A stretch of 64,000 bases of DNA from Dehalococcoidia bacterium (GTDB taxonomy: Bacteria > Chloroflexota > Dehalococcoidia > Lucifugimonadales > GCA-2712585): positions 2,356,615 to 2,420,614 of the forward strand of contig CBDCSX010000002.1 of assembly GCA_965221895.1 (NCBI GenBank). The letters are read 5' to 3'. The notes beneath the pieces were generated by a model. It was given only the letters and a program-made list of their open reading frames with translations, searched no databases and was not told the DNA's origin. Below, in pieces: positions 3,001 through 64,000 of the stretch. Within the stretch, counting starts at the first letter, position 1, and every line of letters starts with the position of its first letter. Both the position numbers and the translations under genes were made by a program.

Positions 3001-6000
3001 CACGCCGATTACCTGACTGCGTTCCCCACTCCGGAGGAAGGCATGGGGTGCCCCACGGTTGACCACGACCTGGACGGCGGGGCAGCCGGCGCCGCTGCGC
3101 GGGTCGCCGCCGGCGGCGCCGACGGGTCCTACACGGCCCCCCAGTTCACGTGCAAAGGCTACGAGCTGACGGATGACCTGACCTTCGACGAGAACACCGA
3201 CGGCGCCATCACCTCCGCCGACGCCGCCTATTGGGACGGAGGGGAGGGCTGGGAGCCCATCGGCGACGACGCCAAAGAGGACGACGCCCAGCGGTACAAC
3301 GCTGTGTTCGAAGGCGGCGGCCACAGCATATCCCGCCTGTTCATCAACCGTCCGGGCAGCGATTACGCAGGGCTGTTCGGGGCCATAGGACCGCACGGCT
3401 CTATTCGAAACGTAGCGCTCCTGGACGCGGACGTAACCGGCAGGAGGTCTGTGGGCGCACTGGCGGGGATGGCCTACGGCATAACCGCAAGGGTCTACGC
3501 CACGGGCAGCGTCAGTGGGTCGAAGGCCGGTGGACTGGCGGGCGAGCTCGGGGGGTACGTCTCGACTAGCTACTCCAACGTCGCCGTATCCGGCTCCGGC
3601 AACTACGTGGGGGGGCTCGTTGGCCTCGCCCAACACGCCGCCGTCATCAAGGCAAGCTACGCCCGGGGAGCAGTGGCTGGGGGCAGCCATGACTTCGTCG
3701 GCGCGCTGGTGGGCAGCAACGACGGCAGCATCACGGCGAGCTACGCTGTAGGGCTCGTATCCGGCACTGGCGGCGACCGCGGGGGACTCGTGGGCGCCAA
3801 CAGAAGAGGCACGATTACCGACAGCTACTGGGACGTCACCACCACCGGCATCGCCGGCGACAGCGACGCCGCCACCGGCGTGGGCAAGACCACGTCCGAC
3901 CTCCAGACGCCCACCGCCTACGGCTCCGGCTCGGACATCTACGCCAACTGGAACCTCAACCTGGACGGGGACGCTAACACAGACGACGACCCGTGGGACT
4001 TCGGCACGACGAGCGAGTACCCGGTCCTCAAGGTCGACTTCGACAACGACAAGGCGCCCACGTTCGCCGAGTTCGGCGCACAGCCCCGCTCGGCCCTAAC
4101 CCCTGCCCAGGTGACCAACGGGCAGCCGGTGTTCCCCGCCATTATCGCTGCGTTCACGCCTGCTGAGGGCCAGACTGCGGCGGGGACGGTTCCGGCGGCG
4201 ACGGACCCGGATAACGACTCGCTGACCTACGAGATGATGTCGGGCGCAAGCGACGGCGATCACGCCCTCTTCAACTTCAACGCCGGCACGAGGGAGCTCA
4301 CCTTCAAGACTGCCCCGGACTACGAGTTTCCTCCGTTGGGGAAGACGACCTACACGGTCAAGATCCGGGTGCGGGACAGCAAGAACGCCGTCGGCACGGC
4401 GGACACGGCTTGGGACACCACGGCAACGGTGACGATCAACCTGCAGAAAGCGGTCGCCGGCGCCAACGGGAAGCCCGTGTTCCCGGTTATCGATGCGTTC
4501 GAGCCTGATGAGAACCAGACGGCGGTGGGGACGATTCCGCAGGCGACGGACCCGGAGAACGACTCGCTGACCTACGAGATGATGTCGGACGCAGGCGACG
4601 GCGACCACGCCCTGTTCACCTTCGTCCCGGGCACGAGGGTTCTCACCTTCAAGGCTGCCCCGAACTACGAGGCGACTCCGACGAAGACGACCTACACGGT
4701 CAAGATCCGGGTGCGGGACAGCTTGAACGCCGGGGGCACGGCGGACACTGGGTGGGACGACACCGTCACGGTGACGATCAACCTGCAGAACGTGAACGAA
4801 GCGCCGACGTTCGGGGTTGTCGGGCCGTACACGCCTGATGAGAACCAGACTGCGGTGGGGACGATTCCGGTGGCGACGGACCCGGACGCAGGCGCCACGC
4901 TGACCTACGAGATGATGATGGGCGCAGGCGACGGCGACCACGCCCTGTTCACCTTCGTCCCGGGCACGAGGGTTCTCACCTTCAAGACTGCCCCGAACTT
5001 CGAGAATCCTCCGTTGTCGAAGACGACCTACACGGTCAAGATCCGGGTGCGGGACAGCTTGAACGCCGGGGGCACGGCGGACACTGGGTGGGACGACACC
5101 GTCACGGTGACGATCAACCTGCAGAACGTGAACGAAGCGCCGACGTTCGGGGTTGTCGGGCCGTACACGCCTGATGAGAACCAGACTGCGGTGGGGACGA
5201 TTCCGGTGGCGACGGACCCGGACGCAGGCGCCACGCTGACCTACGAGATGATGATGGGCGCAGGCGACGGCGACCACGCCCTGTTCACCTTCGTCCCGGG
5301 CACGAGGGTTCTCACCTTCAAGACTGCCCCGAACTTCGAGAATCCTCCGTTGTCGAAGACGACCTACACGGTCAAGATCCGGGTGCGGGACAGCTTGAAC
5401 GCCGGGGGCACGGCGGACACTGGGTGGGACGACACCGTCACGGTGACGATCAACCTGCAGAACGTGAACGAAGCGCCGACGTTCGGGGTTGTCGGGCCGT
5501 ACACGCCTGATGAGAACCAGACTGCGGTGGGGACGATTCCGGTGGCGACGGACCCGGACGCAGGCGCCACGCTGACCTACGAGATGATGATGGGCGCAGG
5601 CGACGGCGACCACGCCCTGTTCACCTTCGTCCCGGGCACGAGGGTTCTCACCTTCAAGACTGCCCCGAACTTCGAGAATCCTCCGTTGTCGAAGACGACC
5701 TACACGGTCAAGATCCGGGTGCGGGACAGCTTGAACGCCGGGGGCACGGCGGACACTGGGTGGGACGACACCGTCACGGTGACGATCAACCTGCAGAACG
5801 TGAACGAAGCTCCGACGTTCGGGGTTGTCGGGCCGTACACGCCTGATGAGAACCAGACTGCGGTGGGGACGATTCCGGTGGCGACGGACCCGGACGCAGG
5901 CGCCACGCTGACCTACGAGATGATGATGGGCGCAGGCGACGGCGACCACGCCCTGTTCACCTTCGTCCCGGGCACGAGGGTTCTCACCTTCAAGACTGCC

Positions 6001-9000
6001 CCGAACTTCGAGAATCCTCCGTTGTCGAAGACGACCTACACGGTCAAGATCCGGGTGCGGGACAGCTTGAACGCCGGGGGCACGGCGGACACTGGGTGGG
6101 ACGACACCGTCACGGTGACGATCAACCTGCAGAACGTGAACGAAGCTCCGACGTTCGGGGTTGTCGGGCCGTACACGCCTGATGAGAACCAGACTGCGGT
6201 GGGGACGATTCCGGTGGCGACGGACCCGGACGCAGGCGCCACGCTGACCTACGAGATGATGATGGGCGCAGGCGACGGCGACCACGCCCTGTTCACCTTC
6301 GTCCCGGGCACGAGGGCGCTCACCTTCAAGAATGCCCCGAACTTCGAGGCGAAAGACAGCTACACGGTCAGCATTCAGGTGCGGGACAGCTTGAACGCCG
6401 CCGGCGTTGGGGACACGGCCTGGGACGACACGGTCGTGGTGACGATCAACCTGCAGGACGTGAACGAGGAGCCGGAGTTCATGTCGCCCGCCACCACGGA
6501 CGTGGATGGAAACCCGGTGCCGCCGGCGCCCATCGCCACGGACACGCGGAGCTTCCGCGAGGATGCGGCGGCGGACGCGGCCATCGGCGCCCCCGTCGCG
6601 GCCACGGACCCCGACACCGAAGTCGACCCCCTGGACACACTGACCTACGCCTTGGCCGCCTCCGGGGACCATGCGTCCTTCGCCATCGACACCGCCACCG
6701 GGCAGCTGAAGACCAAGGCGGGAGTAACCTACGACTACGAGGCGAAGGACACCTACACGGTCACGGTGACCGTGCATGACGGCAAGAACGCCGCCGCCGC
6801 CGTGGACGCCGCCGTGGACGCCACCATTGATGTGACCATCAACGTAACGGACGCGCTCGAACGGTGGACCCCGCCCACCAATATGCACATCGACGTGGTA
6901 ACGCTGGCCAACAGGATCAGGGTCACTTGGACGGCCCCCGCGGCGGCGGATAACACGGGCAAGCCGGCCCTCACCGGCTACAAAGTGGAGTGGAGGCAGA
7001 AGTACAGCGCCAACGCTGCCTGGGCGCCGGACTGGGTCGACTTCCCGCGCAGTGGCCTCGGCACGACCACCGATATCACCACGTACACTGTTAATGCTGC
7101 CGATGGCACGCCCACAACGCATACCGTTGCCACGGGCGGCGGGCGCATCCATGAGGTGCGGGTGTGCTCCCTGAACGAGGACGGGGCGAAGAGCGCGGAC
7201 AATCCGAAGGCGGAACAGTGCGGCAGCTGGACCGGCAACGCTCTGCCGGCCTTCACGGAAGGCACAGAGGCGTCGCGCAGCGTGGCGGAGAACACCGCCG
7301 CCAACACCGACATCGGCCTGCCCGTCGGGGCCGCGGACTCCGACGCAGGGGACACCCTGGTCTACTCGATGACCCAAGGGACACACAGCGCGAAGTTCAC
7401 GATAGACACCGCCACCGGCCAGCTGAAGACCAAGGACCCGCTGGACCACGAGACGGCGGGCTCCTACGATGTCTATGTGAAGGTGAACGACGGAAACAAC
7501 GGCATAGACGGAATCATGGTGACGATCACGGTCACCGACGTAAACGAGCCGCCGGCGTTCGACGACGGGGCCGGCCCCACAACCCGGAGCGTGAGCGAAG
7601 GCGCGGCGGCCGGGGACGCCATCGGCGACCCGGTCGAGGCGACAGACCCGGACACCAAGGCCGACCCCCTGGACACGCTGACCTACGCGCTGGACACCAC
7701 CACCGGCGACCACGCTAACTTCGAGATCGATACGGGCACGGGCCAGCTGAAGGTCAAGGACGCCCTGGACTACGAGACGAAATCCAGCTACACCGTCACC
7801 GTGCAGGTGCGGGACAGCCTGAGCGCTGCGGGCGTGGCGGACACGGTTTGGGACGACACGATCGTGGTCAACATCTCGGTCGGCGACGTGAACGAGGCGC
7901 CGGTGTTCACCGCCGGGGCGGGCCCGCTCAACCGCAGCGTGGCAGAGAACGCGGGCGCCAACGCCAACGTGGGCCTTCCCGTCCCGGCCACGGACGTGGA
8001 CGACGGAGACTCGGTCACCTTATCGATGAGCGGCACGGGCGCGAACCTCTTCAGCATCGACTCCAACGGACAGATCAAGGCTAAAGCCTCGCTGGACTAC
8101 GAAACGGCGGTCTCCTACGCGATCACCGTCACGGCCACCGACACCAGCAGCGCGACGGACACGATCCTGGTGAACATCAGTGTCACCGACGTGGACGAGC
8201 CGCCGACCGCCCCAACGGGCGTCGAGGCCGGTGGGATAGCCAACGGGCTGCGGGTCACCTGGACGGCGCCGGTAATGACGAACAAGCCGGCCCTCGAAGG
8301 CTACGACGTGGAGTACGCCCTGCGCACCGCCGTCGCCGTCGGCGCGACCCCGGCAACCTGGGGCGCCGCGACCACAAGCGCAATCGGGGTCGTGGAAGCC
8401 TACGAGATAACCGGCCTCACCCCGGACTCGACCTACCGGGTGCGGGTGCGGGCCGAGAACGGCGAGGGCAAGGGCACCTGGTCGTCGTACGTCAACGGCG
8501 TGCCCAACGAGCCGCCCCTCATCAACGCGGCCCCGTCCTTCAGCGACGGCGCCAGCACGACGCGCAGTGTGGCGGAGAACACCGCAGCCGGGACCGCCAT
8601 CGGCAATCCCCTGACGGCCACGGACGCGGACGCCGGGGACACGCTGGTGTACGCCATCGACGGCGCCACCGGCGACTACGCCCACTTCGCCATCGACACG
8701 GGCACGGGCCAGCTGAAGGCCAAAGGCGCCCTGGACTACGAGAGCGGGACGACCAGCTACTCGATCACGGTGACCGTCTCCGACGGCAGCGGCGGGGCGG
8801 ACAGCATCGACGTGACCATCACCGTCACCAACGTGAACGAGAAGCCGGCCTTCCCCGCCGGCGCCCAGACGCTCACGCCGAACGAGAACCAGACCGCCGC
8901 GGGGACCGTCACGGCCGCCACCGACCCGGAGGGCGACACGCTGACCTACCGGATGCTTCCCGACACCGGCGACGACGACTCCTTCAACTTCAACGCGGGC

Positions 9001-12000
9001 ACGAGGACGCTCACCTTCAAGACTGCCCCGGACTTCGAGGCGAAGGACACCTACACGGTCAGCATCCAGGTGAAGGACAGCAAGAACGCCGCGGGCGCGG
9101 CGTCCCTGACCTGGGACGCCACGGTCGTGGTGACCGTCGACGTCCAGGACGTGAGCGAGCGGCCGTCGGCGCCCACCGGTCTCGGGGTACTCGCGGCGGC
9201 CAACGGGCTGCGGGTCTCGTGGACGGCGCCGGACATGACGGGCAAGCCGCCCGTCACCGGCTACAAGCTGCACTACAGCCGGCGCGATTTCGCCGCGGGC
9301 CCCGGCCAGTGGGGTAACTGGGTGGACCACGCCCACGCCGGGACCGGGACCTCGACCACGATAACCGGCCTCACCGCCGGCGATACCTACCGGGTGCAGG
9401 TGCGGGCCGCCAACGACGACGGCGACGGTTCCTGGACGTCGCCTGACACCGGCGTGCCCACCGCGCCGCCCGTCAGCAATGCCGTCCCGGTCTTCACCGA
9501 CGGCGCCAGCACGACGCGCAGCGTGGCGGAGAACACCGCAGCCGGGACCAACATCGGGTTGCCCATAGCAGCCACCGACGCGGACGCTGGGGACACGCTC
9601 GTTTACGCCATCGACGCCACCACCGGCGACCACGGCCACTTCGCCATCGACTGGGCCTCCGGTCAGTTGAAGACCAAGAGCGCCCTGGACTACGAGAGCA
9701 ATAACCGCTACACCGTCGTCGTGACCGTCTCCGACGGGAACGGCGGGACGGACAGCATCACCGTGACCATCGACGTCACCGACGTCGCGAACGAGACGCC
9801 GGGAGTGGTCCCGCCGCAGGCCAACCGCGCCCCGGCCTTCGACGAGGGATCGAGCGCCAGCCGGAGCGTGGCGGAGAACACGGCGTCCGGCCAGGACATC
9901 GGTCTCCCCTTGGCGGCCACAGACCCCGACAGCGACTCGCTGAGCTACGCGCTGGGCGGAACGGACTCGGGCCACTTCGCCCTCTCCGGCAACCGGCTCC
10001 GGACCAGCGGCGCCCTGGACTACGAGGGCAAGAGCTCCTACTTGGTGACCGTGACCGTCTCCGACGGCCGCGGCGGGACGGACACCATCGCCGTGACCAT
10101 CACCGTCACCAACGTGGACGAAGCGCCGACGGTCACGCCGACGCCGGTGGCGCCCACCGGGACCCTGGCCTTCGACAAGGTGGGCGTCGCCAGACGCACG
10201 GTTGACGCCTACGCTCCCGTCGGCACGGCCGTGGGCGCCCCGGTCACGGCGACCGTCTCCGCCGGCATGGCAGGGCCCTTCTATAGCGTCTACACCAGGT
10301 CGTCGCCTTTCACCGTGGACCGGCTGACCGGTCAACTGAGGACTGCCAGGAAGCTGGGGCCCGCGGACGAGTACACCATCCAACTGCTCGCTACGGACGG
10401 AAAGGGCAGGCTCGACGTTATCGGGGTCATCATCACGGTAACCGGAGGCCGCGCCAACAGGGACCCGGTCTTCCGGGAAGGCGCCTCGGCGACCCGCAGC
10501 GTGGTGGCGGGGTCCTCGCGGGGCGTCCGCGTGGGCAGGCCCGTCACGGCTACCGACCCGGATGGCGACGCCCTCTTCTACATGGTCAGTGGAGCGGACT
10601 CCAGCCACTTCAGCATCGGCAGCGGGAGCGGCCAGATCAAAGTCGGCAGGCCCCTGACCAAGAGCTCGTATTCGTTCGAGGTGGTCGTGGGCGACCTCAA
10701 GGGCGGAGTGGACGTCCTCGACATCACCATCACCGTCACCGCCGTGGACGCGCCGCCGGTGGCGACGACGCCCACACCGACGCCAAACCGCGCGCCGTCC
10801 TTCGACGAGGGCGCCGGCGCCAGCCGCAGCGTGGCGGAGAACACGCCGGCGGGCAGGAACATCGGCCTGCCCCTGGCGGCCACCGACCCCGACAGCGACT
10901 CGCTGACCTACGCGCTGGGCGGAACGGACTCCGGCCACTTCGTTCTCTCCGGCAACCGGCTGCGCACCAGCGGGGCCCTGGACTACGAGGGGGTCAAGAA
11001 CTCCTACGCGGTGACCGTGACCGTGAGCGACGGCCGCGGCGGGACGGACACCATCGACGTGACCATCACCGTCACCAACGTGAACGAGGCGCCGGTGGTG
11101 GCCCCGCCGCCGGCCAACCGCGCGCCGTCCTTCGACGAGGGCGCCAGCGCCAGCCGCAGCGTGGCAGAGAACACGCCGGCCGGGACCGACATCGGCCTGC
11201 CCCTGGCGGCCACCGACCCCGACGGCGACTCGCTGACCTACGCGCTGAGCGGAACGGACTCCGGCCACTTCGCTCTCTCCGGCAACCAACTGCGGACCAG
11301 CGGGGACTATGCGGGGGTCAAGAGCTCCTACTCGGTCACCGTGTACGTCTCCGACGGCCGCGGCGGGACGGACAGCATCGACGTGACCGTCACCGTCATC
11401 AACGTGGACGAGGCGCCGGTGGAGCCGACGCCGCAGGCCAACCGCGCCCCGTCCTTCGACGAGGGCGCCAACACGACGCGCAGCGTGGCGGAGAACACGG
11501 AGGCCGGCCAAGACATCGGCCTCCCCCTGGCGGCCACCGATCCCGACAGCGACTCGCTGACCTACGCGCTGAGCGGCGCCGACTCCGGCCACTTCGCCCT
11601 CTCCGGCAACCGGCTCCAGACCAGCGGAGCGCTGGACTACGAGGGCCAGAACTCCTATTCGGTGACCGTGAACGTGAGCGACGGGAATGGCGGCTCGGAC
11701 ACCACCGCCGTGACCATCACCGTCACCAACGTGAACGAGCCGCCGGGCGCGCTCCCGGGCTTAGCGGTGTTTGAAGAGGTCAACGGGATACGGGTCTCCT
11801 GGTCCGCGCCGGACATGACGGGAAAGCCGCCCATCACCGGCTACGACGTACAGTACAAGTTGGTCACGGCCACTGACTGGAACAATCACTCCCACAGCGG
11901 CACAGGCACAACGATCCAGGGCCTCACCGCCGGTTCCACGTACAACGTGCGGGTGCGGGCCAAGAACGATGAGGGGCACAGCGTCTGGGCCAGCGCACAG

Positions 12001-22768: not shown

Positions 22769-24253
22769 ATGAGCAGAATGATGAGCTTGGCGCAAAGAGT
22801 TGCCGCGGCAGCGCTTGTTGTGAGCATAGCGATGGGGCTGGCGAGCATACTTCACACAAGTCCCGTCGCCGCCACGGAGCACAGCGCCACCAGGCGCTTC
22901 TCCCAGTCGTGGACGCTGACGGGCGGTGAGTTGACGGTAACCATTACCCCCACCGGATACGGAAGTTTGGGGCAGGTGGTGGAGACATTGCCCATGGGTT
23001 TCACCTACATGAGGTCCAGCTTGGAAGCCGCAAGACCCGAGGGCCGTACCGTCGTCTTCACCCTGCTGGGAGATGAGAGTTTCACCTACACGGTAGCAGC
23101 GCCCGCGGAAGAGGGCGTTTACGCCTTTTCGGGGGTACTGAAAGACTCGACGAAGGCGGAAGAGCAGGTGGGAGGCCACTCCGAGATGGTAGTGAGATCC
23201 ACTTCGCCGCCTACACCTACACCAACTCCCACACCCACGGAGCCCAGCGCCACCAGGCGCTTCTCCCAGTCGTGGGCTCTATTAGGTGGCGAATTCGTGG
23301 TAACCATCACAGCTGAAAGGTACGGCGGTCTGGGCCGGGTCGTGGAGACACTCCCCGCTGGCTTCACCTATGTCTCATCCAGCCTGGAGGCGGCCATGGT
23401 CGAGGGCCAGACCGTCAATTTCACCCTAATGGGCGATGACACCTTCACCTACACCGTTATCGCATCCGCAGAGGAAGGCTCTCACTCCTTTGCCGGGGTC
23501 CTGCATGACTCGAACAAGGTCGAACAGCCAGTGGGAGGCTATTCTGCAATAATCGTCAGGGCCACTCCGCCGCCAGCTCCCACCTCAACTCCTACGCCCG
23601 TGGAACCCAACGCCAGCAGGCGCTTCTCCCAGTCGTGGGCTCTTCCGGGCGGTGAGCTTACGGTAACGATCACTGCCACCGGATACGGAGGTTTGGGGCA
23701 GGTCGTGGAGACATTGCCCACCGGCTTCAGCTATGCATCGTCCAGCCTGCCGGATGCGACCGTGGTCGAAGGCCAGACCGTCACCTTCACCCTGCTGGGC
23801 GATGCGGCATTCTCTTACACCGTGACGGCCTCCGCCGAGGAGGGGGGCCACGCTTTTGCCGGAGTCTTGAAAGACGCAGACAGGACCGAACAACCGGTGG
23901 GAGGCTCTTCCCGGATAGTTGTCAGCGTCACTCCCCCAGCGACGCCTACACCCATCCCGACCTCTACGCCCACGCCTGAGCCTACCCCGCCCCCGACGCC
24001 CACGCCTGCGTTGACCCCAACGCCGACCCCGGCGCCAACGCCCACGTTGACCCCAACCCCGGCGCCCACGCCGACCTCTACGCCCATGCCTGCCCCGGCG
24101 CCGACCCCGGCGCCCACGGCGGCGCCCACTCCCACGGTTGCTCCGGCAGTGGTCGAGCGGGAAGAGGAGGGCGGTCTTCCCTGGCTGTGGATCATCGTCG
24201 TGGCCGGGGCAATCTTGGCGATAGGTGGCACAATTGTGTCTGTGCGTCGGTAG
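22769..24253 (+). CDS. Membrane-anchored surface protein: signal peptide, three tandem ~120-aa domains, Pro/Thr-rich stalk, C-terminal TM helix + RR
   Basis: N-terminus [28 protein letters not shown]. The domain [17 protein letters not shown]...YG.LG.VVETLP.GF.Y..SSLE...VEGQTV.FTL.GD..FTYTV.A..EEG.H.F.GVL.D occurs 3 times, separated by PTPTP linkers. A long TPTPxP tract follows. The protein ends [27 protein letters not shown]. It starts 33 nt after giant gene 2. Confidence 0.85.
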
Positions 24254-46594: not shown

Positions 46595-46903
46595 ATGCCA
46601 AGAGTAATACTGACAGGAGTGGCGGAAAAAGACGGCAACCAGTTCACCGCCCTATGCCCGGAGTTGGACGTAGCCAGTTGCGGCGATACGGTGGAAGAAG
46701 CCCTGGATATGCTGGAAGAAGCCCTCGGAGTGTATCTGGAAGATTTGGCGGATATTGGCAATCTTGACCGGGAATTGAAGGAATGCGGCGTCACGGTTCG
46801 AGAAGACATTCTCGGCGAGGGGGAGGAAGTAATGGTGCCTGCGCTCCCGGGACAGATCTACCGAGCATACGTTATGAAGATTCCCGCTCTCGCAACTCGC
46901 TAA
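46595..46903 (+). CDS. hicB: HicB-like antitoxin
   Basis: DGNQFTALCPELDVASCGDTVEEALDMLEEALGVYLEDL matches the HicB/UPF0150 N-terminal fold pattern. A HicA-like ORF follows directly. Confidence 0.7.
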   Translation: MPRVILTGVAEKDGNQFTALCPELDVASCGDTVEEALDMLEEALGVYLEDLADIGNLDRELKECGVTVREDILGEGEEVMVPALPGQIYRAYVMKIPALATR

Positions 46904-46917
46904 ACCGGTATTTCTAA

Positions 46918-47157
46918 GTGGCGAGATTACCCCGCTGCTCCAGCAGACAGGTTGTCAACGCTCTCGTGAGGTTAGGCTGCTACAAGGGTAAGAGTGGTAG
47001 AGGCAGTCATCAGTCCTATCGACGCAGGCTTCCCAATGGACACGTTCTATCAAGCCCGGTTGTTTTAGGTCAACGCGAGTTTTCCCGAGGTACACTTAGG
47101 GCTGTACTAAGACAACTCCAAATCTCTGATGACGAGTTCATAGTCGCCCTTCGATAG
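46918..47157 (+). CDS. hicA: HicA-family mRNA interferase toxin
   Basis: 79 aa. The HicA/YcfA-like pattern is SSRQVVNALVRLGCYKGKSGRGSHQSYRR...GTLRAVLRQLQISDDEF. Confidence 0.7.
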   Translation: MARLPRCSSRQVVNALVRLGCYKGKSGRGSHQSYRRRLPNGHVLSSPVVLGQREFSRGTLRAVLRQLQISDDEFIVALR

Positions 47158-55538: not shown

Positions 55539-55779
55539 TATGGTGGCGGATTGTGAAGGGACTCGTTTTCGCGGACTCAGGCGTGAAAGTTACTCGTTTT
55601 GGAAATCGAGTCGGAGTGAATTCGTGCCTGAGATTATTCGTTTCAGGCGTGGGGACTCGTTTCAAAAAAGTTAGGCAAACGAGTCCGGTTCTGGGGCGAC
55701 TTTTTCTGCTGGGCTGTTAAAGTGCATAGTTCGGCTGAGGGAGGGTAGCAGAGGAGTGGAAGTTTCGGCAATGAAAAGA

Positions 55780-55822
55780 TGTCACTTCGCCTTTTAGGGT
55801 GTTGAAAGATTGGATTGAAAGA
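55780..55822 (+). repeat. 43-bp imperfect direct repeat, copy A
   Basis: TGTCACTTCGCCTTT...GTTGA...ATTGGATTGAAAGA matches copy B at 56299-56341 at 36 of 43 positions by my alignment. Confidence 0.8.
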
Positions 55823-56196: not shown

Positions 56197-56298
56197 AAAG
56201 CCGGTATACATCTACTGCGCCTTCATGTCGATTTTGGGGTCCTTTTTCCCTTACGTAGTCAAGCAGGTAAATCTCGGGGAATCTTGGCAACCAGAAGG

Positions 56299-56341
56299 TG
56301 TCACTTCGCCTTTGTTGGCGTTGATGAATTGGATTGAAAGA
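56299..56341 (+). repeat. 43-bp imperfect direct repeat, copy B
   Basis: See copy A. This copy lies upstream of the lipoprotein gene, whose ATG I place at 56461 (it ends 12 nt before the track ORF start at 56353). Confidence 0.8.
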
Positions 56342-61323: not shown

Positions 61324-62361
61324 ATGACGCAGACCGCAAGTATCGAGACGCTATCGAATATCGCCAGGGCGCTGGTGGCGCCGGGCAAGGGCATCTTGGC
61401 GGCGGACGAAAGTACCGGCACCATCAAGCGCAGGTTCGACAGCATCGGCGCTGAGAGCACCGAGACGAACCGTCGCGATTACCGCGAGATGCTGTTTCGC
61501 ACTCCAGGTGTTTCCGAGTTCGTCAGCGGAGTTATTCTGTACGACGAGACCATTCGGCAAAAAAGCGACGACGGTACGCCCATTGTGAAGGTCCTATCGG
61601 ATGCGGGCATGATGCCGGGCATCAAGGTGGACACGGGGGCCAAGGATCTGGCGGGCGCACCCGGTGAAAGCGTCACCGAGGGGTTGGACGGCCTGCGGGA
61701 GCGGCTGGCGGAGTACGCGGTGTTGGGCGCACGGTTCACTAAATGGCGTGCGGTCATCACCATCGGGCCGGGCATGCCCAGCGCCTACTGCCTGGACGTA
61801 AACGCCCACGCGCTGGCCCGCTTTGCCGCGCTGACTCAGGAGGCGGGGATGGTCCCGATGGTGGAACCGGAAGTGCTTATGGACGGAGGTCACAACATCG
61901 ACCAGTGCTACGACGCCACCGAAGCGGCATTGGCGGAGATGTTCCACCAGTTGCGGGGTCAAGGTGTTGCGATGGACGGCATCCTGCTAAAGGTCAACAT
62001 GGTGCTTTCAGGTGCGTCCGCAGAGGGTCGCGCCGGGCGTGAGGAAGTGGCTGAGATGACGGTGCAATGTCTGAAGAGCACAGTGCCCGCGACTGTGCCG
62101 GGCATCGTCTTCCTCTCCGGTGGTCAGGGCGACGACGAGTCGACAACGAACCTGGACGCGATAAACGGGTACGCTCAGCGCGTCGGCGCGCCGTGGGAGT
62201 TGAGCTTCTCCTACGGCCGAGGCCTTCAGGGCGCGCCCCTACGGACATGGTCAGGCAACAACGAAAACCGGGCGGAAGTGCAGCGCGTCTTCCACCACCG
62301 CGCGAGGGTGACGGCGGCGGCGCGGCAGGGGCGGTATGACGTGGGGATGGAGGCGGGGTAG
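61324..62361 (+). CDS. fba: Class I fructose-bisphosphate aldolase
   Basis: LVAPGKGILAADESTGTIKRRF, PGIKVDTG, LLKVNMV (Schiff-base Lys region), LSGGQ, SFSYGRGLQ. Confidence 0.9.
   Translation: MTQTASIETLSNIARALVAPGKGILAADESTGTIKRRFDSIGAESTETNRRDYREMLFRTPGVSEFVSGVILYDETIRQKSDDGTPIVKVLSDAGMMPGIKVDTGAKDLAGAPGESVTEGLDGLRERLAEYAVLGARFTKWRAVITIGPGMPSAYCLDVNAHALARFAALTQEAGMVPMVEPEVLMDGGHNIDQCYDATEAALAEMFHQLRGQGVAMDGILLKVNMVLSGASAEGRAGREEVAEMTVQCLKSTVPATVPGIVFLSGGQGDDESTTNLDAINGYAQRVGAPWELSFSYGRGLQGAPLRTWSGNNENRAEVQRVFHHRARVTAAARQGRYDVGMEAG
62325..62352 (+). repeat. 28-nt direct repeat, copy 1 (inside the 3' end of fba)
   Basis: GCAGGGGCGGTATGACGTGGGGATGGAG is identical to 63042-63069. The similarity continues imperfectly for about 12 more nt (GGGGTAGG is shared). 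Confidence 0.95.
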
Positions 62362-62483
62362 GCCGGTTGGGTTTACTGGATGACTAATGCATCCCCACTT
62401 GCTTGTCAACGGTGTAGATCGGTACTATCCTTTAGCAAATATGCTCGCAAGCCAGCCATAGGAGAAACGCGGGAGGAGAGGCT

Positions 62484-62780
62484 ATGCCCCCAGCAAAGCG
62501 ACACTTTACGCTAAATACGAAAGTGGAAAAACATGATGAGGTCTACGTCGGCTACTGCGTTGAATTAGGCACCGTCACCCAAGGAGATTCTCTGGAGGAA
62601 GTCTGCGAGAATCTAAAGGATGCCATCTACGTTCACCTATCCGTACTCGACGAAATCGGAGAACGCGAGCGAGTCTTTCGCGAAAAAGGTATCGTCATGC
62701 TTCCAGCAATCGATGATACTGTCGAATTCGCCGCCGCTGTTTCAGAGAAGACCGAGACTCCCATATTCGTATATGCCTAG
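62484..62780 (+). CDS. hicB: HicB-like antitoxin (second module)
   Basis: KHDEVYVGYCVELGTVTQGDSLEEVCENLKDAIYVHLSVLDEIG has the same fold pattern as 46595..46903. Confidence 0.65.
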   Translation: MPPAKRHFTLNTKVEKHDEVYVGYCVELGTVTQGDSLEEVCENLKDAIYVHLSVLDEIGERERVFREKGIVMLPAIDDTVEFAAAVSEKTETPIFVYA

Positions 62781-63024
62781 AATACCTGCGAGCAATTTGC
62801 CGCTATTGTCCAGCAGGAAGTTGCTCGCCGTTTTGAAGAGAATAGGGTGTTTGGAGCACAAGCGGAGAGGTGGGTCTCACTTGGGAATTTCAAGACGGAT
62901 TTCTGAAGGAAGAATTCTTACAACCACATTGGTACTGAGCAAAAGAGAAATACACAGGGTCGCTCTCAGCAGGATGTTAAGGTCCTTGGGAATTGACCTT
63001 GACACTTTCAGAAAACATCTCTAA
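62773..63024 (+). CDS. hicA: HicA-family toxin (second module)
   Basis: MPRIPASNLPLLSSRKLLAVLKRIGCLEHKRRGGSHLGISRR... ATG 62773 overlaps the hicB stop by 8 nt. The track ORF 62620..63024 starts too early. Confidence 0.65.
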   Translation: MPRIPASNLPLLSSRKLLAVLKRIGCLEHKRRGGSHLGISRRISEGRILTTTLVLSKREIHRVALSRMLRSLGIDLDTFRKHL

Positions 63025-63041
63025 TACCCACAGTAACCTCC

Positions 63042-63069
63042 GCAGGGGCGGTATGACGTGGGGATGGAG
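63042..63069 (+). repeat. 28-nt direct repeat, copy 2
   Basis: Identical to 62325-62352. Read in the fba frame it would end ...GRYDVGME followed by TAA. Confidence 0.95.
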
Positions 63070-63094
63070 TAAGGGGGTAGGGCTGAGGAGCAGG

Positions 63095-64000
63095 TTAAGC
63101 CTCTGAGCGATTGATGATTAGAGATTCTTTTGCGTAACCCAAACGCTCAACTATCTTTCTGCAGCGATCTTCGAGTGATTTTGCGTTACCGTGGACAGAA
63201 ACGGCGACATCAGACTCTCCAATCTGCTCGTGCCCGTTCTTCATTTCACCTACTGGAGAGATCCATGCTTGGCCGATGCTCAAGACACTTTTGCTGAAGG
63301 AATCAGGATGATGGTCATAAAGTATTGCGCAAACCTTACGAAGAAGGTCAGCCCAGTTCTGAACAAGCTCAGAATTCCCCATACCCTCAAAGGTGAAAGA
63401 TGTTGGTTTCTGAGATGGTGAACGAGGTGGCGTTACTGCAACCTCGTTGAACAAAGAGTAATGGTTTTGTTTAAGAAAAGCCTGAACAAGTCCTTCTTCT
63501 GCTTCAATGCCTTGGCTATGAGCAAAGTGCAAGACTAGTCGCCTTTGTTCTCCATGACTATTGGCACTGGCTAGCCTGTCCCAAGCTCTATGTAACCTTG
63601 TCCAGATGTCTCTTCTTTTTTCGAAATCCTTGTGGCGTTTGCGCGCTGCTTTAAGTGTCTTCTCGGTGGGTTCACCCGGTCTGACGTTATTGCGGGATAG
63701 GAAGTCCATAAAGTAATTTTGCACCCAGGTCTTGTCGCGATTGACTATGTCTATCTCAGGATCCATTTGTCTGAGTTTATGGTTGTTTTTTTCGGGGGCG
63801 ACATAGAATCGCCAAATGCGACCGTTTGTCAGAATAGCAAGACGTGGCACGTCGCAATTCGCGGCCATCTGCTCGTCCTTTAGTGCGGTCAGGCAGTATC
63901 CGTGCAGCTGATTTCTATTGTTGTCAGTCAGAGGTTTGTCCCACTCCTTTGCCTCCAAGAAAATCCGACTCTTGCCATCTATTTTGAGAGAATAGTCAAC
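63095..64000 (-). CDS. PD-(D/E)XK nuclease-like protein with HsdR-N-terminal-type core, 5' partial (continues past the window end)
   Basis: The frame stays open from 63958 to 64000, adding VDYSLKIDGKSRIFLEAKEWDKPL. It carries a D...E-A-K motif, followed by Q..GY and LAILTNGRIWRFY, as in type I restriction R-subunit N-terminal-like domains. The region is AT-richer. Confidence 0.6.
   Translation of the reverse strand, partial: VDYSLKIDGKSRIFLEAKEWDKPLTDNNRNQLHGYCLTALKDEQMAANCDVPRLAILTNGRIWRFYVAPEKNNHKLRQMDPEIDIVNRDKTWVQNYFMDFLSRNNVRPGEPTEKTLKAARKRHKDFEKRRDIWTRLHRAWDRLASANSHGEQRRLVLHFAHSQGIEAEEGLVQAFLKQNHYSLFNEVAVTPPRSPSQKPTSFTFEGMGNSELVQNWADLLRKVCAILYDHHPDSFSKSVLSIGQAWISPVGEMKNGHEQIGESDVAVSVHGNAKSLEDRCRKIVERLGYAKESLIINRSEA

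What the first reader, a model, noticed from the sequence alone, without database searches (positions are those of the whole stretch)
62325..63069. hicBA cassette bracketed by a 28-nt perfect direct repeat that duplicates the 3' end of the aldolase gene
GCAGGGGCGGTATGACGTGGGGATGGAG occurs at 62325-62352, which encodes the last residues of fba (...QGRYDVGMEAG*). It occurs again at 63042-63069, 717 bp downstream. There it would read ...GRYDVGME* in the same frame.

The interval holds only the AT-richer hicB-hicA pair. This is the signature of site-specific insertion into a gene's 3' end with att-site duplication. No integrase lies inside the 717 bp.

Immediately beyond copy 2, another AT-richer foreign-looking gene (PD-(D/E)XK/HsdR-N-like) runs off the window. 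The repeats may therefore mark tandem accretion of cassettes at one attachment site.
Basis: seen in the sequence. Interest (0 to 1): 0.65.

Follow-up and report, generated by a model that had tools for sequence, protein, structure and literature searches.

The report
Old hicBA insertion duplicating aldolase tail
The two identical 28-base stretches are the best-kept core of a roughly 55-base duplication of the aldolase gene's end, made when a small toxin-antitoxin cassette was inserted there in an ancestor of this Dehalococcoidia group; it is a real but fairly ordinary insertion scar, not a growing array of mobile cassettes.

Summary
The 28-mer occurs exactly twice (62325-62352 and 63042-63069), against 0 expected by chance.

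It is the perfect core of a longer, imperfect duplication of about 55 nt of the fba 3' end (62308-62362 and 63033-63081). This duplication brackets a 670-bp, low-GC hicB-hicA cassette that carries its own promoter.

Five other genomes of the same Dehalococcoidia clade show the same architecture. All 80 fba loci without hicBA that were examined carry a single tail copy. These include two outgroups and L089, the window's closest relative. So the duplication belongs to the insertion.

A tree of flanking genes fits one ancestral gain, followed by loss in L089 and decay in L084/L086.

Within each genome the two copies share lineage-specific codons, which implies sequence exchange between the copies. 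Among four lineages the cassette's synonymous divergence is 2-8 times lower than that of its flanks, which implies recent exchange between lineages.

No integrase and no third copy lie within 6-10 kb in relatives that cover the region beyond the window. The HsdR_N-like gene beyond copy 2 is already present at cassette-free outgroup sites, so tandem accretion is not supported.

Verdict: a real insertion scar and a new member of a known kind. How the cassette was originally inserted remains unresolved.

The parts
61324..62361 (+). fba, class I fructose-bisphosphate aldolase (345 aa). Its last 18 codons plus the stop codon lie in copy 1 of the duplication.
   Evidence: Pfam PF00274, E = 7e-127; ORF listing; 580 confirmed relatives in genome contigs.
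62308..62362 (+). Copy 1 of the ~55-nt duplicated fba tail (GTGAC...TAGG). It is functional and completes fba. It contains the perfect 28-mer at 62325-62352.
   Evidence: Block boundaries were defined by alignment with L085, L088, L001 and L002 and with the single-copy sites L089, L090 and L003.
62363..63032 (+). The inserted 670-bp low-GC cassette: a variable left end, a promoter region, hicB and hicA. It has no recombinase and no terminal inverted repeats.
   Evidence: GC 0.47-0.51. Present in the window, L085, L088, L001, L081 and L002 (pseudogenised in L084 and L086), and absent from L089, L090, L003 and 77 other loci.
62403..62431 (+). Promoter-like site TTGTCA-17-TATCCT upstream of hicB, conserved in the fba-context relatives.
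   Evidence: the only hit in the region; conservation visible in alignment A2. Function is inferred.
62484..62780 (+). hicB-like antitoxin (98 aa; HicB/UPF0150-type N-domain only, with no recognisable DNA-binding domain).
   Evidence: A family profile hits TTHA1756 (E = 1.5e-5) and solved HicB antitoxin structures (E = 1.3e-3 to 0.04). The Pfam HicB_lk_antitox match is below threshold (E = 0.014). The family is tiny, with 13 clusters.
62776..63024 (+). hicA-like toxin (82 aa). It overlaps the end of hicB by 5 nt (62776-62780), and the G-S-H motif is invariant.
   Evidence: Pfam HicA_toxin 22.4 bits, below the 27-bit cutoff. It is 38-41% identical to a second HicA in the window that scores 34.9 bits.
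63033..63081 (+). Copy 2 of the duplicated fba tail, a non-coding relic. It reads GTAACCTCCG, then an 8-nt deletion, then the perfect 28-mer at 63042-63069, then TAAGGGGGTAGG.
   Evidence: There is no significant RNA structure, terminator or Rfam hit.
63095..64000 (-). The 'slot gene': HSDR_N / PD-(D/E)XK-like nuclease family. It converges on hicA and runs off the window. It is an older, fast-diverging resident of the fba-glpX spacer, not part of the hicBA insertion.
   Evidence: 35-38% aa identity to L002 and L003; 61% to L088. Present at the cassette-free sites L003, L089 and L090.

Best explanation
A 670-bp hicB-hicA type II toxin-antitoxin cassette with its own promoter was inserted at the very end of fba in the common ancestor of this Dehalococcoidia clade. 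fba and glpX are convergent genes, and the spacer between them is a variable slot.

The insertion duplicated about 55 nt of the fba 3' end, from the Val-Thr codons through the stop codon plus 1-2 nt. The proximal copy completes fba. The distal copy is a non-coding relic.

The cassette encodes no recombinase. It has since been inherited mostly vertically, lost in at least one lineage (L089), and pseudogenised in others (L084, L086).

The two copies occasionally exchange sequence by gene conversion or unequal recombination. This keeps them alike within a genome while the fba tail diverges between genomes. The window's perfect 28-mer is such a homogenised, or simply undecayed, core between decayed flanks.

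The cassette allele has also been exchanged between related lineages, most simply by homologous recombination into already occupied sites.

The repeats allow scarless loss that leaves fba intact. The addictive toxin-antitoxin pair would oppose such loss.

Shown: the duplication, its link to the cassette, the phylogenetic distribution, the similarity of copies within a genome, and the low cassette dS.

Inferred: the conversion mechanism, the homologous-recombination route, the loss pathway, toxin-antitoxin activity, and the way the original insertion created the duplication (unresolved).
For: - The repeat is real and unique in the window.
- Six occupied genomes show a duplicated fba tail around hicBA: the window; L001 (54 nt, 85%) and L002 (38 nt, 92%); L085 (57 nt, 88%); L088; and L081, which keeps a decayed relic.
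- All fba loci without hicBA have one tail copy: 77 loci, plus L089 and L090.
- A neighbour-joining tree of 3.1 kb of flanking genes gives outgroups L003 and L090 without the cassette and an ingroup that is all hicBA-positive except L089, which is sister to the window.
- Copies within a genome are 73-82% identical, against 47-66% for orthologous copies between clades. The variable codons (DVG, TPS/TLS, SPTP/TPTQ) are shared by both copies within a lineage.
- A tail variant sits in copy 2 of the window but in copy 1 of L088.
- Cassette dS equals flank dS for L001-L002 and L001-L081. It is 2-8 times lower among the window, L088, L085 and L001. Third-position differences are 8-14% in the cassette against 28-34% in the flanks, Fisher p = 3e-5 to 8e-9.
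- The young tracts have irregular ends: about 62290-63150 against L088, and about 62400-63040 against L001.
- No recombinase appears in the gene tables of L081, L088, L089 or L090.
- The slot gene is present at cassette-free sites.
- The fba-glpX spacer ranges from 51 bp to 1.4 kb with unrelated contents in other Dehalococcoidia.
Against: - How a ~55-nt duplication arose without a recombinase is not explained.
- The right junction (…CCCACA|GTAAC…) is the same in the window, L085 and L001. This is trivial under inheritance, but it would also fit precise site-specific re-insertion.
- Between the window and L001 the cassette interior is young while both repeats are host-specific. This needs both crossovers inside a 670-bp cassette, or re-insertion with target duplication.
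- Gene conversion between repeats this short is near the minimal processing length known for E. coli (my own knowledge) and has not been studied in Dehalococcoidia.
- Several relatives are low-coverage long-read assemblies (2-9x), so single-base indels, including the TA versus TAA detail of the swapped variant, are uncertain.
- The source genome beyond 64000 was not seen directly.
Confidence: 0.6

Rival explanations
1. CIME-like element. The two tail copies are attL and attR of a site-specific integrative element that targeted the fba 3' end. The element has decayed to its toxin-antitoxin module, or is a tiny cis-mobilisable cassette, and can still be excised and integrated in trans by a tyrosine or serine recombinase encoded elsewhere in the genome.
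For: - Direct repeats formed from a gene's 3' end with the gene reconstituted, and an empty site with a single copy in a sister lineage.
- A fixed junction position in several genomes.
- A swapped variant between copy 1 and copy 2 in the window versus L088, as an excision-reintegration cycle with different crossover points would give.
- Cassette alleles younger than their flanks.
- Precedents: ICESt1/ICESt3 and CIMEs at the fda 3' end (PMC3234194), and Dehalococcoides ssrA islands, some lacking integration modules (PMC3146451).
Against: - No recombinase lies in the cassette or within 6-10 kb in four relatives.
- The repeat sequence is not a conserved core. It tracks each host's fba tail.
- L081's copy 2 decays freely.
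- The same cassette family downstream of tkt has no flanking duplication.
- The repeat core is absent from the viral and metagenome collections.
- A 670-bp remnant whose ends abut both att sites exactly would need two precise deletions.
Confidence: 0.2
2. The hicBA minicassette is a non-autonomous mobile unit. It re-inserts at a fixed position at the fba stop region and creates a new ~55-nt target-site duplication each time, through staggered cleavage by an unknown trans-acting enzyme. The glpX and ybaB tail duplications in relatives may be made by the same process.
For: - Both repeat copies are host-lineage-specific while the cassette interior is shared and young.
- The duplicated block has the same boundaries in all lineages.
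- Similar 57-nt (glpX tail, L001) and 98-nt (ybaB tail, L087) 3'-end duplications bracket small inserts in the same clade.
- The cassette family also occurs at a second locus, after tkt.
Against: - For L001-L002 and L001-L081 the cassette co-diverges with the host, and the tree fits one gain.
- The left part of the window's copy 2 (GTAACC...) is not the window's own state (GTGACG...).
- The copies are imperfect in every genome.
- There are no terminal inverted repeats, and no duplication at the tkt site.
- To my knowledge no transposition system makes 55-nt duplications.
- A scan of 1.47 Mb found few such cases.
Confidence: 0.1
3. Copy 2 is kept similar to the fba tail because it has a function of its own. 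It could be a terminator or processing signal between the convergent hicA and slot genes, or the source of an antisense RNA against the fba 3' end when the slot gene is read through.
For: The perfect 28-nt identity sits between decayed flanks in the window. Copy 2 lies in the 70-nt gap between convergent genes.
Against: - Fold z-scores are -1.0 to +0.3 on both strands and in the relatives. No terminator-like site and no Rfam match were found.
- Copy 2 is decayed in L081 and deleted in L084/L086.
- L085's copy 2 has 3 substitutions in the 28-mer.
Confidence: 0.05
4. A chance match, a dispersed genomic repeat, or an assembly artefact.
For: None found.
Against: 0 of 100 shuffles give a match. There are only two copies in 64 kb. 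The same architecture appears in independent assemblies from different samples.
Confidence: 0.01

Closest known systems
ICESt1/ICESt3 and the related cis-mobilisable elements (CIMEs) integrated in the 3' end of fda in Streptococcus thermophilus (PMC3234194, which cites Pavlovic et al. 2004 on deletion and tandem accretion)
   Same: The target is the 3' end of a fructose-bisphosphate aldolase gene. The insert is flanked by direct repeats made from that 3' end, and the gene stays intact. Integrase-less derivatives flanked by att sites are known.
   Different: Those elements are tens of kb long, encode or depend on a known tyrosine integrase, have a conserved att core, and accrete in tandem. Here the insert is 670 bp with only a toxin-antitoxin pair and no recombinase nearby. 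The repeats vary by lineage. There is no third copy, and the neighbouring gene predates the insert. The aldolase is class I here; I recall the streptococcal fda being class II, which I did not check.
Dehalococcoides ssrA-specific genomic islands (PMC3146451)
   Same: The same bacterial class. Low-GC islands are bounded by a gene's 3' end and a direct repeat of it. Some islands lack integration modules and are proposed to be cis-mobilisable or fixed.
   Different: Those islands target the tmRNA gene with a 20-bp repeat, occur in tandem arrays, and use a serine recombinase (DsiB) module next to attL. None of these features is present here.
Minimal mobile elements of Neisseria (Saunders & Snyder 2002; Snyder et al. 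2007, as described in PMC3787668)
   Same: A slot between conserved flanking genes (here fba and glpX) holds different gene cassettes in close relatives. There are no mobility genes. Exchange is best explained by homologous recombination in conserved flanks. Mosaic identity and dS patterns fit this.
   Different: As defined in the passage read, minimal mobile elements carry no duplication of a flanking gene's end. Natural transformation is not documented for this lineage.
Chromosomal HicAB/HicBA type II toxin-antitoxin modules
   Same: A small two-gene operon with overlapping reading frames. It has a HicA-type toxin with a conserved G-S-H motif, an antitoxin with a HicB/UPF0150-type N-domain, a patchy distribution, and pseudogenisation in some lineages.
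   Different: The antitoxin gene comes first, and the antitoxin lacks a recognisable DNA-binding domain. Both proteins score below Pfam thresholds. The HicB-like family has only 13 clusters in 5.8 billion proteins. Activity is untested.

Membership tests
Site-specific integrative element / CIME (att-flanked) | Direct repeats derived from the target gene's 3' end flank the insert, and the target gene is reconstituted | tested here: met
Site-specific integrative element / CIME (att-flanked) | A recombinase (tyrosine or serine integrase) is encoded in the element or beside it | tested here: not met
   Nothing but hicB and hicA lies in the 670 bp. No recombinase Pfam family appears in the gene tables of L081, L088, L089 or L090 within 6-8 kb. 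L001 and L002 downstream hold glpX, nadC and nadA.
Site-specific integrative element / CIME (att-flanked) | A conserved att core sequence is shared by all copies and hosts | tested here: not met
   The middle of the repeat is lineage-specific. The only invariant columns correspond to the conserved Q-G-R-Y codons and the stop codon. L081's copy 2 is decayed.
Site-specific integrative element / CIME (att-flanked) | Empty sites with a single att copy occur in relatives | tested here: met
   L089 (sister to the window), L090, L003 and 77 others.
Site-specific integrative element / CIME (att-flanked) | An excised circular form, or mobilisation in trans by a cognate integrase | not testable with these tools
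   This needs read data or the complete source genome. The exact proteins are not in the collections.
Tandem accretion array | Three or more att copies delimit successive cassettes | tested here: not met
   There are only two tail copies in L088, L085, L002 and L001 over up to 10 kb downstream. The gene beyond copy 2 is also present at cassette-free sites.
HicAB/HicBA type II toxin-antitoxin | HicA toxin domain (PF07927) with the conserved His | tested here: inconclusive
   22.4 bits against a 27-bit cutoff. It is 38-41% identical to a paralog in the window that scores 34.9 bits. G33-S34-H35 are invariant. There is no PDB hit by profile.
HicAB/HicBA type II toxin-antitoxin | HicB antitoxin N-domain | tested here: inconclusive
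   The profile hits TTHA1756 (E = 1.5e-5) and solved HicB chains (E = 1.3e-3 to 0.044). The Pfam HicB_lk_antitox match (E = 0.014) is below the cutoff.
HicAB/HicBA type II toxin-antitoxin | Toxicity of HicA and its neutralisation by HicB | not testable with these tools
   This requires an experiment.
Minimal mobile element (cassette exchange by homologous recombination between conserved genes) | Different gene content between the same conserved flanking genes in close relatives, without mobility genes | tested here: met
   The fba-glpX spacer holds, in different genomes: hicBA present or absent; slot-gene alleles 35-61% identical; a 52-aa ORF; purT; a DUF7002 gene; or nothing.
Minimal mobile element (cassette exchange by homologous recombination between conserved genes) | Mosaic ancestry that indicates recombination in or near the flanks | tested here: met
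   Segmental identity jumps from 78.5% to 98.3% at the fba/cassette boundary against L088. See also the dS and third-position contrasts and the tract mapping.
Xer/dif-type modules (IMEX, pdif) | A 28-bp site with two imperfectly palindromic 11-bp arms around a 6-bp spacer | tested here: not met
   The 28-mer arms GCAGGGGCGGT and TGGGGATGGAG are not reverse complements of each other (read). The 28 nt are only the preserved part of a 55-nt coding duplication.
Transposon or insertion sequence with target-site duplication | Terminal inverted repeats and/or a transposase, with a short fixed duplication | tested here: not met
   No inverted repeats link the cassette ends and there is no transposase. 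The duplication is about 55 nt.

The most novel reading that the evidence does not exclude
The 670-bp hicBA unit is a non-autonomous mobile minicassette. It is inserted again and again at a fixed position at the end of fba, and related inserts may go in at the ends of glpX and ybaB. A trans-acting enzyme that makes a ~55-nt staggered target duplication would do this. That would be a new way of capturing genes at the 3' ends of convergent housekeeping genes in Dehalococcoidia.
Probability: 0.1. Interest if true: 0.7.

Novelty: new member of a known kind. Interest (0 to 1): 0.35.

Why it matters
This is a clean, phylogenetically dated example of how a selfish toxin-antitoxin pair settles at the end of an essential-pathway gene without damaging it.

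The duplicated gene end preserves the reading frame. It also keeps a scarless exit route open, and it then evolves in concert with the live gene end.

The case shows that a perfect short repeat around a cassette need not mean recent or integrase-driven insertion.

For uncultured Dehalococcoidia it also marks the fba-glpX spacer as a recombination-active slot that carries fast-evolving nuclease-like genes.

If the minority reading holds (repeated precise re-insertion with a 55-nt target duplication), it would point to an undescribed insertion mechanism.

Tried and rejected
- Exact-protein look-ups of fba and HicB found no source contig.
- A metagenome scan with HicB peptide patterns gave no confirmed hits.
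- Scans with the 24-nt repeat core gave no hits in metagenome or viral contigs. So no attP-bearing element and no closer strain was found there.
- RNA roles for the repeats were rejected: fold z-scores are not significant, and there is no terminator and no Rfam family.
- A dif/Xer-like reading of '28 bp' was rejected because the arms are not palindromic.
- A reading with terminal inverted repeats or a transposon was rejected.
- The cassette family downstream of tkt (L082, L083, L087) was examined for an analogous duplication of the tkt 3' end, and none was found. Its left boundary could not be defined because the intergenic regions are too diverged.
- A generic scan of 1.47 Mb for 3'-end duplications mostly returned internal protein repeats, paralogs or intergenic repeat families.
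- The second candidate in the window (55767/56286) is not at a real gene end; the ORF it touches is spurious.
- PADLOC gave no system-level assignment for the slot gene or for hicBA.
- The idea that copy 2 is read in frame with hicA was dropped, because the frame is not conserved in L001 (read).
Full report
OBSERVATION. The 28-mer GCAGGGGCGGTATGACGTGGGGATGGAG occurs at 62325-62352 and 63042-63069 and nowhere else in the window, even allowing 3 mismatches. None of 100 dinucleotide-preserving shuffles gives a match (family D1). Copy 1 lies in the last codons of a class I fructose-bisphosphate aldolase (61324-62361; PF00274, E = 7e-127), which ends ...QGRYDVGMEAG*. Copy 2 is followed by TAA. Between the copies lie two overlapping small ORFs, hicB-like (62484-62780) and hicA-like (62776-63024). 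Their GC content is 0.47-0.51, against 0.61-0.67 for fba. Beyond copy 2, a minus-strand gene with a weak HSDR_N match runs off the window.

WHAT THE GENES ARE. HicA scores 22.4 bits on PF07927, below the 27-bit cutoff. It is 38-41% identical to a second HicA in the same window (46918-47157), which scores 34.9 bits. It keeps an invariant G-S-H motif. A profile of the HicB-like family hits TTHA1756 (E = 1.5e-5) and solved HicB antitoxins (E = 1.3e-3 to 0.04). The Pfam HicB_lk_antitox match is below threshold. The hicBA label is therefore reasonable but rests on weak homology. The HicB-like family is very small: 13 clusters at 76-97% identity in a database of 5.8 billion proteins. A promoter-like site (TTGTCA-17-TATCCT, 62403-62431) sits upstream of hicB and is conserved in relatives.

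RELATIVES: THE DUPLICATION IS OLDER AND LONGER THAN 28 NT. The window belongs to an uncultured Dehalococcoidia lineage. Five further genomes have hicBA directly after fba with a recognisable second copy of their own fba tail after hicA:
- L001: 54 nt, 85%
- L002: 38 nt, 92%
- L085: 57 nt, 88%
- L088
- L081: a decayed relic

In L084 and L086 the cassette is pseudogenised and partly deleted. Alignment A7 shows that the duplicated block runs from GT.AC (the Val-Thr codons) through the stop codon to TAGG, about 55 nt. In the window this is 62308-62362 and 63033-63081. The window's copy 2 has an 8-nt deletion on the left and a changed tail on the right, so only the central 28 nt remain perfect.

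THE DUPLICATION BELONGS TO THE CASSETTE. Of 80 fba loci from species-representative genomes, only L001 and L002 carry hicBA. Only those two carry a second tail copy. Three informative cassette-free sites were read base by base: L089, L090 and L003. Each has one tail copy, followed within about 10-60 nt by the end of the next gene.

PHYLOGENETIC DISTRIBUTION. A neighbour-joining tree was built from 3.1 kb of flanking housekeeping genes (amidohydrolase, deacetylase, fba). It places L003 and L090 (no cassette) as outgroups. The ingroup is all cassette-bearing except L089, which is sister to the window at 9% nt distance. Segment identities and dS values agree. One gain at the base of the ingroup, one loss in L089 and decay in L084/L086 is the most parsimonious history.

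NOT TANDEM ACCRETION. The gene beyond copy 2 belongs to one collinear family, with an HSDR_N domain plus a conserved C-terminal region. The same family occupies the same position and orientation in L002, L088 and L085, and also at the cassette-free sites L003, L089 and L090. It therefore predates hicBA. It is extremely divergent: 35-38% aa identity between the window and L002 or L003, and 61% to L088. Flanks in the same comparisons are 80-90% nt identical. The gene behaves like a fast-turnover nuclease or defence-like locus. L088 carries the window's slot-gene lineage and shows what lies past 64000: the rest of that gene, then glpX, nadC and nadA. There is no third tail copy and no recombinase. 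The same holds for L001, L002, L081 and L085. The convergent fba/glpX pair is ancestral in Dehalococcoidia. Its spacer ranges from 51 bp to 1.4 kb and holds unrelated contents such as purT, a DUF7002 gene or nothing. It is a variable slot.

THE TWO COPIES EVOLVE TOGETHER. Copies within a genome are 73-82% identical over the block. Orthologous copies between clades are 47-66% identical. The variable middle is lineage-specific but shared by both copies: GACGTGGGG (DVG) in the window, L085 and L088; ACCC(C/T)CAGC in L001; A(G/C)CCCCACC in L002. These multi-nucleotide states cannot have arisen twice in parallel, so sequence has moved between the copies. The left edge of the window's copy 2 (GTAACC...) keeps the L001-like state rather than the window's own (GTGACG...). 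The perfect tract is thus a patch, as gene conversion would leave. A tail variant (GAG-TA...) sits in copy 2 of the window but in copy 1 of L088, and GAG-GC... is the other way round. This again points to exchange between copies. L088 is a 6x long-read assembly, so single-base details are uncertain. L081 shows what happens without exchange: its copy 2 has drifted to about 65% identity by eye.

THE CASSETTE HAS ALSO MOVED BETWEEN LINEAGES. For L001-L002 and L001-L081 the cassette's dS equals that of the flanks (0.54-1.0 against 0.59-0.94). Among the window, L088, L085 and L001, hicB dS is 0.08-0.24 and hicA dS is 0.21-0.38, against 0.48-0.87 for the deacetylase gene and fba. Third-position differences in synonymous-comparable codons are 8-14% in the cassette and 28-34% in the flanks (Fisher p = 3e-5 to 8e-9). 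The controls show no difference. Against L088, the young tract runs from about 62290 to about 63150, spanning both repeats and the end of the slot gene. Against L001, it is confined to about 62400-63040, inside the cassette. Irregular endpoints are what homologous-recombination imports give, so allelic replacement at already occupied sites is the simplest reading. The window-L001 pattern, a young interior between host-specific repeats, is also what re-insertion with target duplication would give. This is the main reason the mobile-cassette rivals stay alive.

OTHER CONTEXTS AND ANALOGUES. The same cassette family (HicB 76% identical) lies downstream of a transketolase subunit gene in L082, L083 and L087, followed by a methyltransferase-Mrr fusion. 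There the upstream gene's end is not duplicated. Two further 3'-end duplications occur in the clade. In L001 a 57-nt copy of the glpX tail brackets a 52-aa membrane ORF. In L087 a 98-nt copy of the ybaB tail is fused in frame to a lipoprotein-like ORF. An unrelated Pseudomonadota locus (L057) has a 77-nt, 99% identical duplication around a low-GC GajB-like helicase gene. Such scars are thus not unique, but they were rare in the 1.47 Mb scanned.

MECHANISM. Shown: an insertion-associated ~55-nt direct duplication of the fba 3' end; absence of any recombinase in or near the cassette; one gain, with later loss and decay; exchange between the copies; and exchange of the cassette between lineages. 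Inferred: the proximal copy keeps fba functional; the distal copy is a relic with no RNA structure, terminator or Rfam signal; the repeats allow scarless deletion (L089 is consistent with this but does not prove it); and the toxin-antitoxin pair opposes its own loss. Unresolved: how the original duplication arose. Candidates are a decayed site-specific element, Campbell-type single-crossover integration of a circle carrying a fba-tail fragment, homology-facilitated illegitimate recombination, or staggered cleavage.

COMPARISON WITH KNOWN SYSTEMS. The closest formal analogues are the ICESt1/ICESt3 family and its CIMEs, which integrate into the 3' end of fda in Streptococcus thermophilus and accrete in tandem (PMC3234194). 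Also close are the Dehalococcoides ssrA islands, bounded by 20-bp repeats of the ssrA 3' end (PMC3146451). The present locus shares the repeat geometry and the empty-site polymorphism with these. It fails the defining tests of a recombinase, a conserved core and tandem copies. Behaviourally the fba-glpX spacer matches the 'minimal mobile element' concept of cassette exchange by flanking homology (PMC3787668). The locus is best filed as a new member of known kinds: a chromosomal toxin-antitoxin insertion scar in a recombination-active slot.

CAVEATS. L085-L090 are 2-9x long-read metagenome contigs, so indels and homopolymer lengths are unreliable. Presence or absence, and differences of several nucleotides, are robust. 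The source genome beyond 64000 was not available. The dS estimates for hicB and hicA rest on 98 and 82 codons.

Noticed in passing
window 46595-47157: There is a second hicB-hicA-like pair in the same gene order: HicB-like of 102 aa at 46595-46903 and HicA of 79 aa at 46918-47157. This HicA scores above the Pfam cutoff (34.9 bits) and is 38-41% identical to the cassette's HicA. No direct repeats flank the pair.
   Followed up: partly
window 63095-64000 (-); L088 9778-10857; L002 7558-8604; L003 11107-12150: The HSDR_N/PD-(D/E)XK-like 'slot gene' is collinear in all these genomes but only 35-61% identical in protein, while the flanking genes are 80-90% identical in DNA. Alleles also differ between the window, L085 and L089. 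This locus diverges very fast or is replaced often. PADLOC gives only weak matches to the nuclease region of type IIG enzymes.
   Followed up: partly
L001 11769-11825 and 12024-12080: A 57-nt, 84% duplication of the glpX 3' end (including the stop codon and 7 nt beyond) brackets a 52-aa predicted membrane ORF (11829-11987, minus strand). The distal copy keeps the state seen in the glpX tails of L081 and L086. L084 and L086 carry the same small ORF with a partial relic.
   Followed up: partly
L087 3670-3767 and 5178-5275: A 98-nt, 95% duplication of the ybaB 3' end lies 1.5 kb apart, next to the tkt-context hicBA. The distal copy is fused in frame to a 156-aa lipoprotein-like ORF. The contig has 2x coverage.
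   Followed up: partly
L082 6001-7921; L083 5690-7619: The same hicBA family (HicB 76% identical) sits after a transketolase C-terminal subunit gene. It is followed by an N6/N4 methyltransferase fused to, or next to, an Mrr-type nuclease. In both genomic contexts the cassette neighbours a restriction-like gene.
   Followed up: partly
L057 1968-2044 and 4393-4469: In a Pseudomonadota MAG, a 77-nt, 99% duplication of a gene's 3' end brackets a 2.4-kb low-GC insert (GC 0.51 against 0.62-0.68). The insert encodes a GajB-like UvrD helicase (PADLOC E = 1e-48). No other ORF of 60 aa or more with an obvious function was seen in the insert, and no family search was run on the smaller ORFs.
   Followed up: no
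window 55767-55822 and 56286-56341: A 56-nt direct repeat (80%) lies in a low-GC intergenic region of about 1.1 kb, between leuA (minus strand) and a lipoprotein-like gene. It is not at a real gene end. Its nature is unknown.
   Followed up: partly
window 1-24150: This region holds very large repetitive coding sequence with many repeat families. Five tandem 336-nt units at 4682-6325 are 99-100% identical. A Pro/Thr-rich low-complexity run lies at 23942-24147. It looks like giant surface or adhesin-type proteins.
   Followed up: no
L002 2135-2473: A cluster of intergenic repeats of about 55 nt (two copies 100% identical, 155 nt apart, and a third at 75%) lies at the end of an ORF. It resembles a small dispersed repeat family.
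   Followed up: no
window 62341-62349 with 62389-62397; window 63019-63032 with 63058-63069: The clade-specific GTGGGGATGGAG of each tail copy can pair with nearby cassette sequence: CATCCCCAC in the intergenic region for copy 1, and CTCTAATACCCAC at the hicA end for copy 2. Fold z-scores are not significant, and the pairing is absent in L001.
   Followed up: partly
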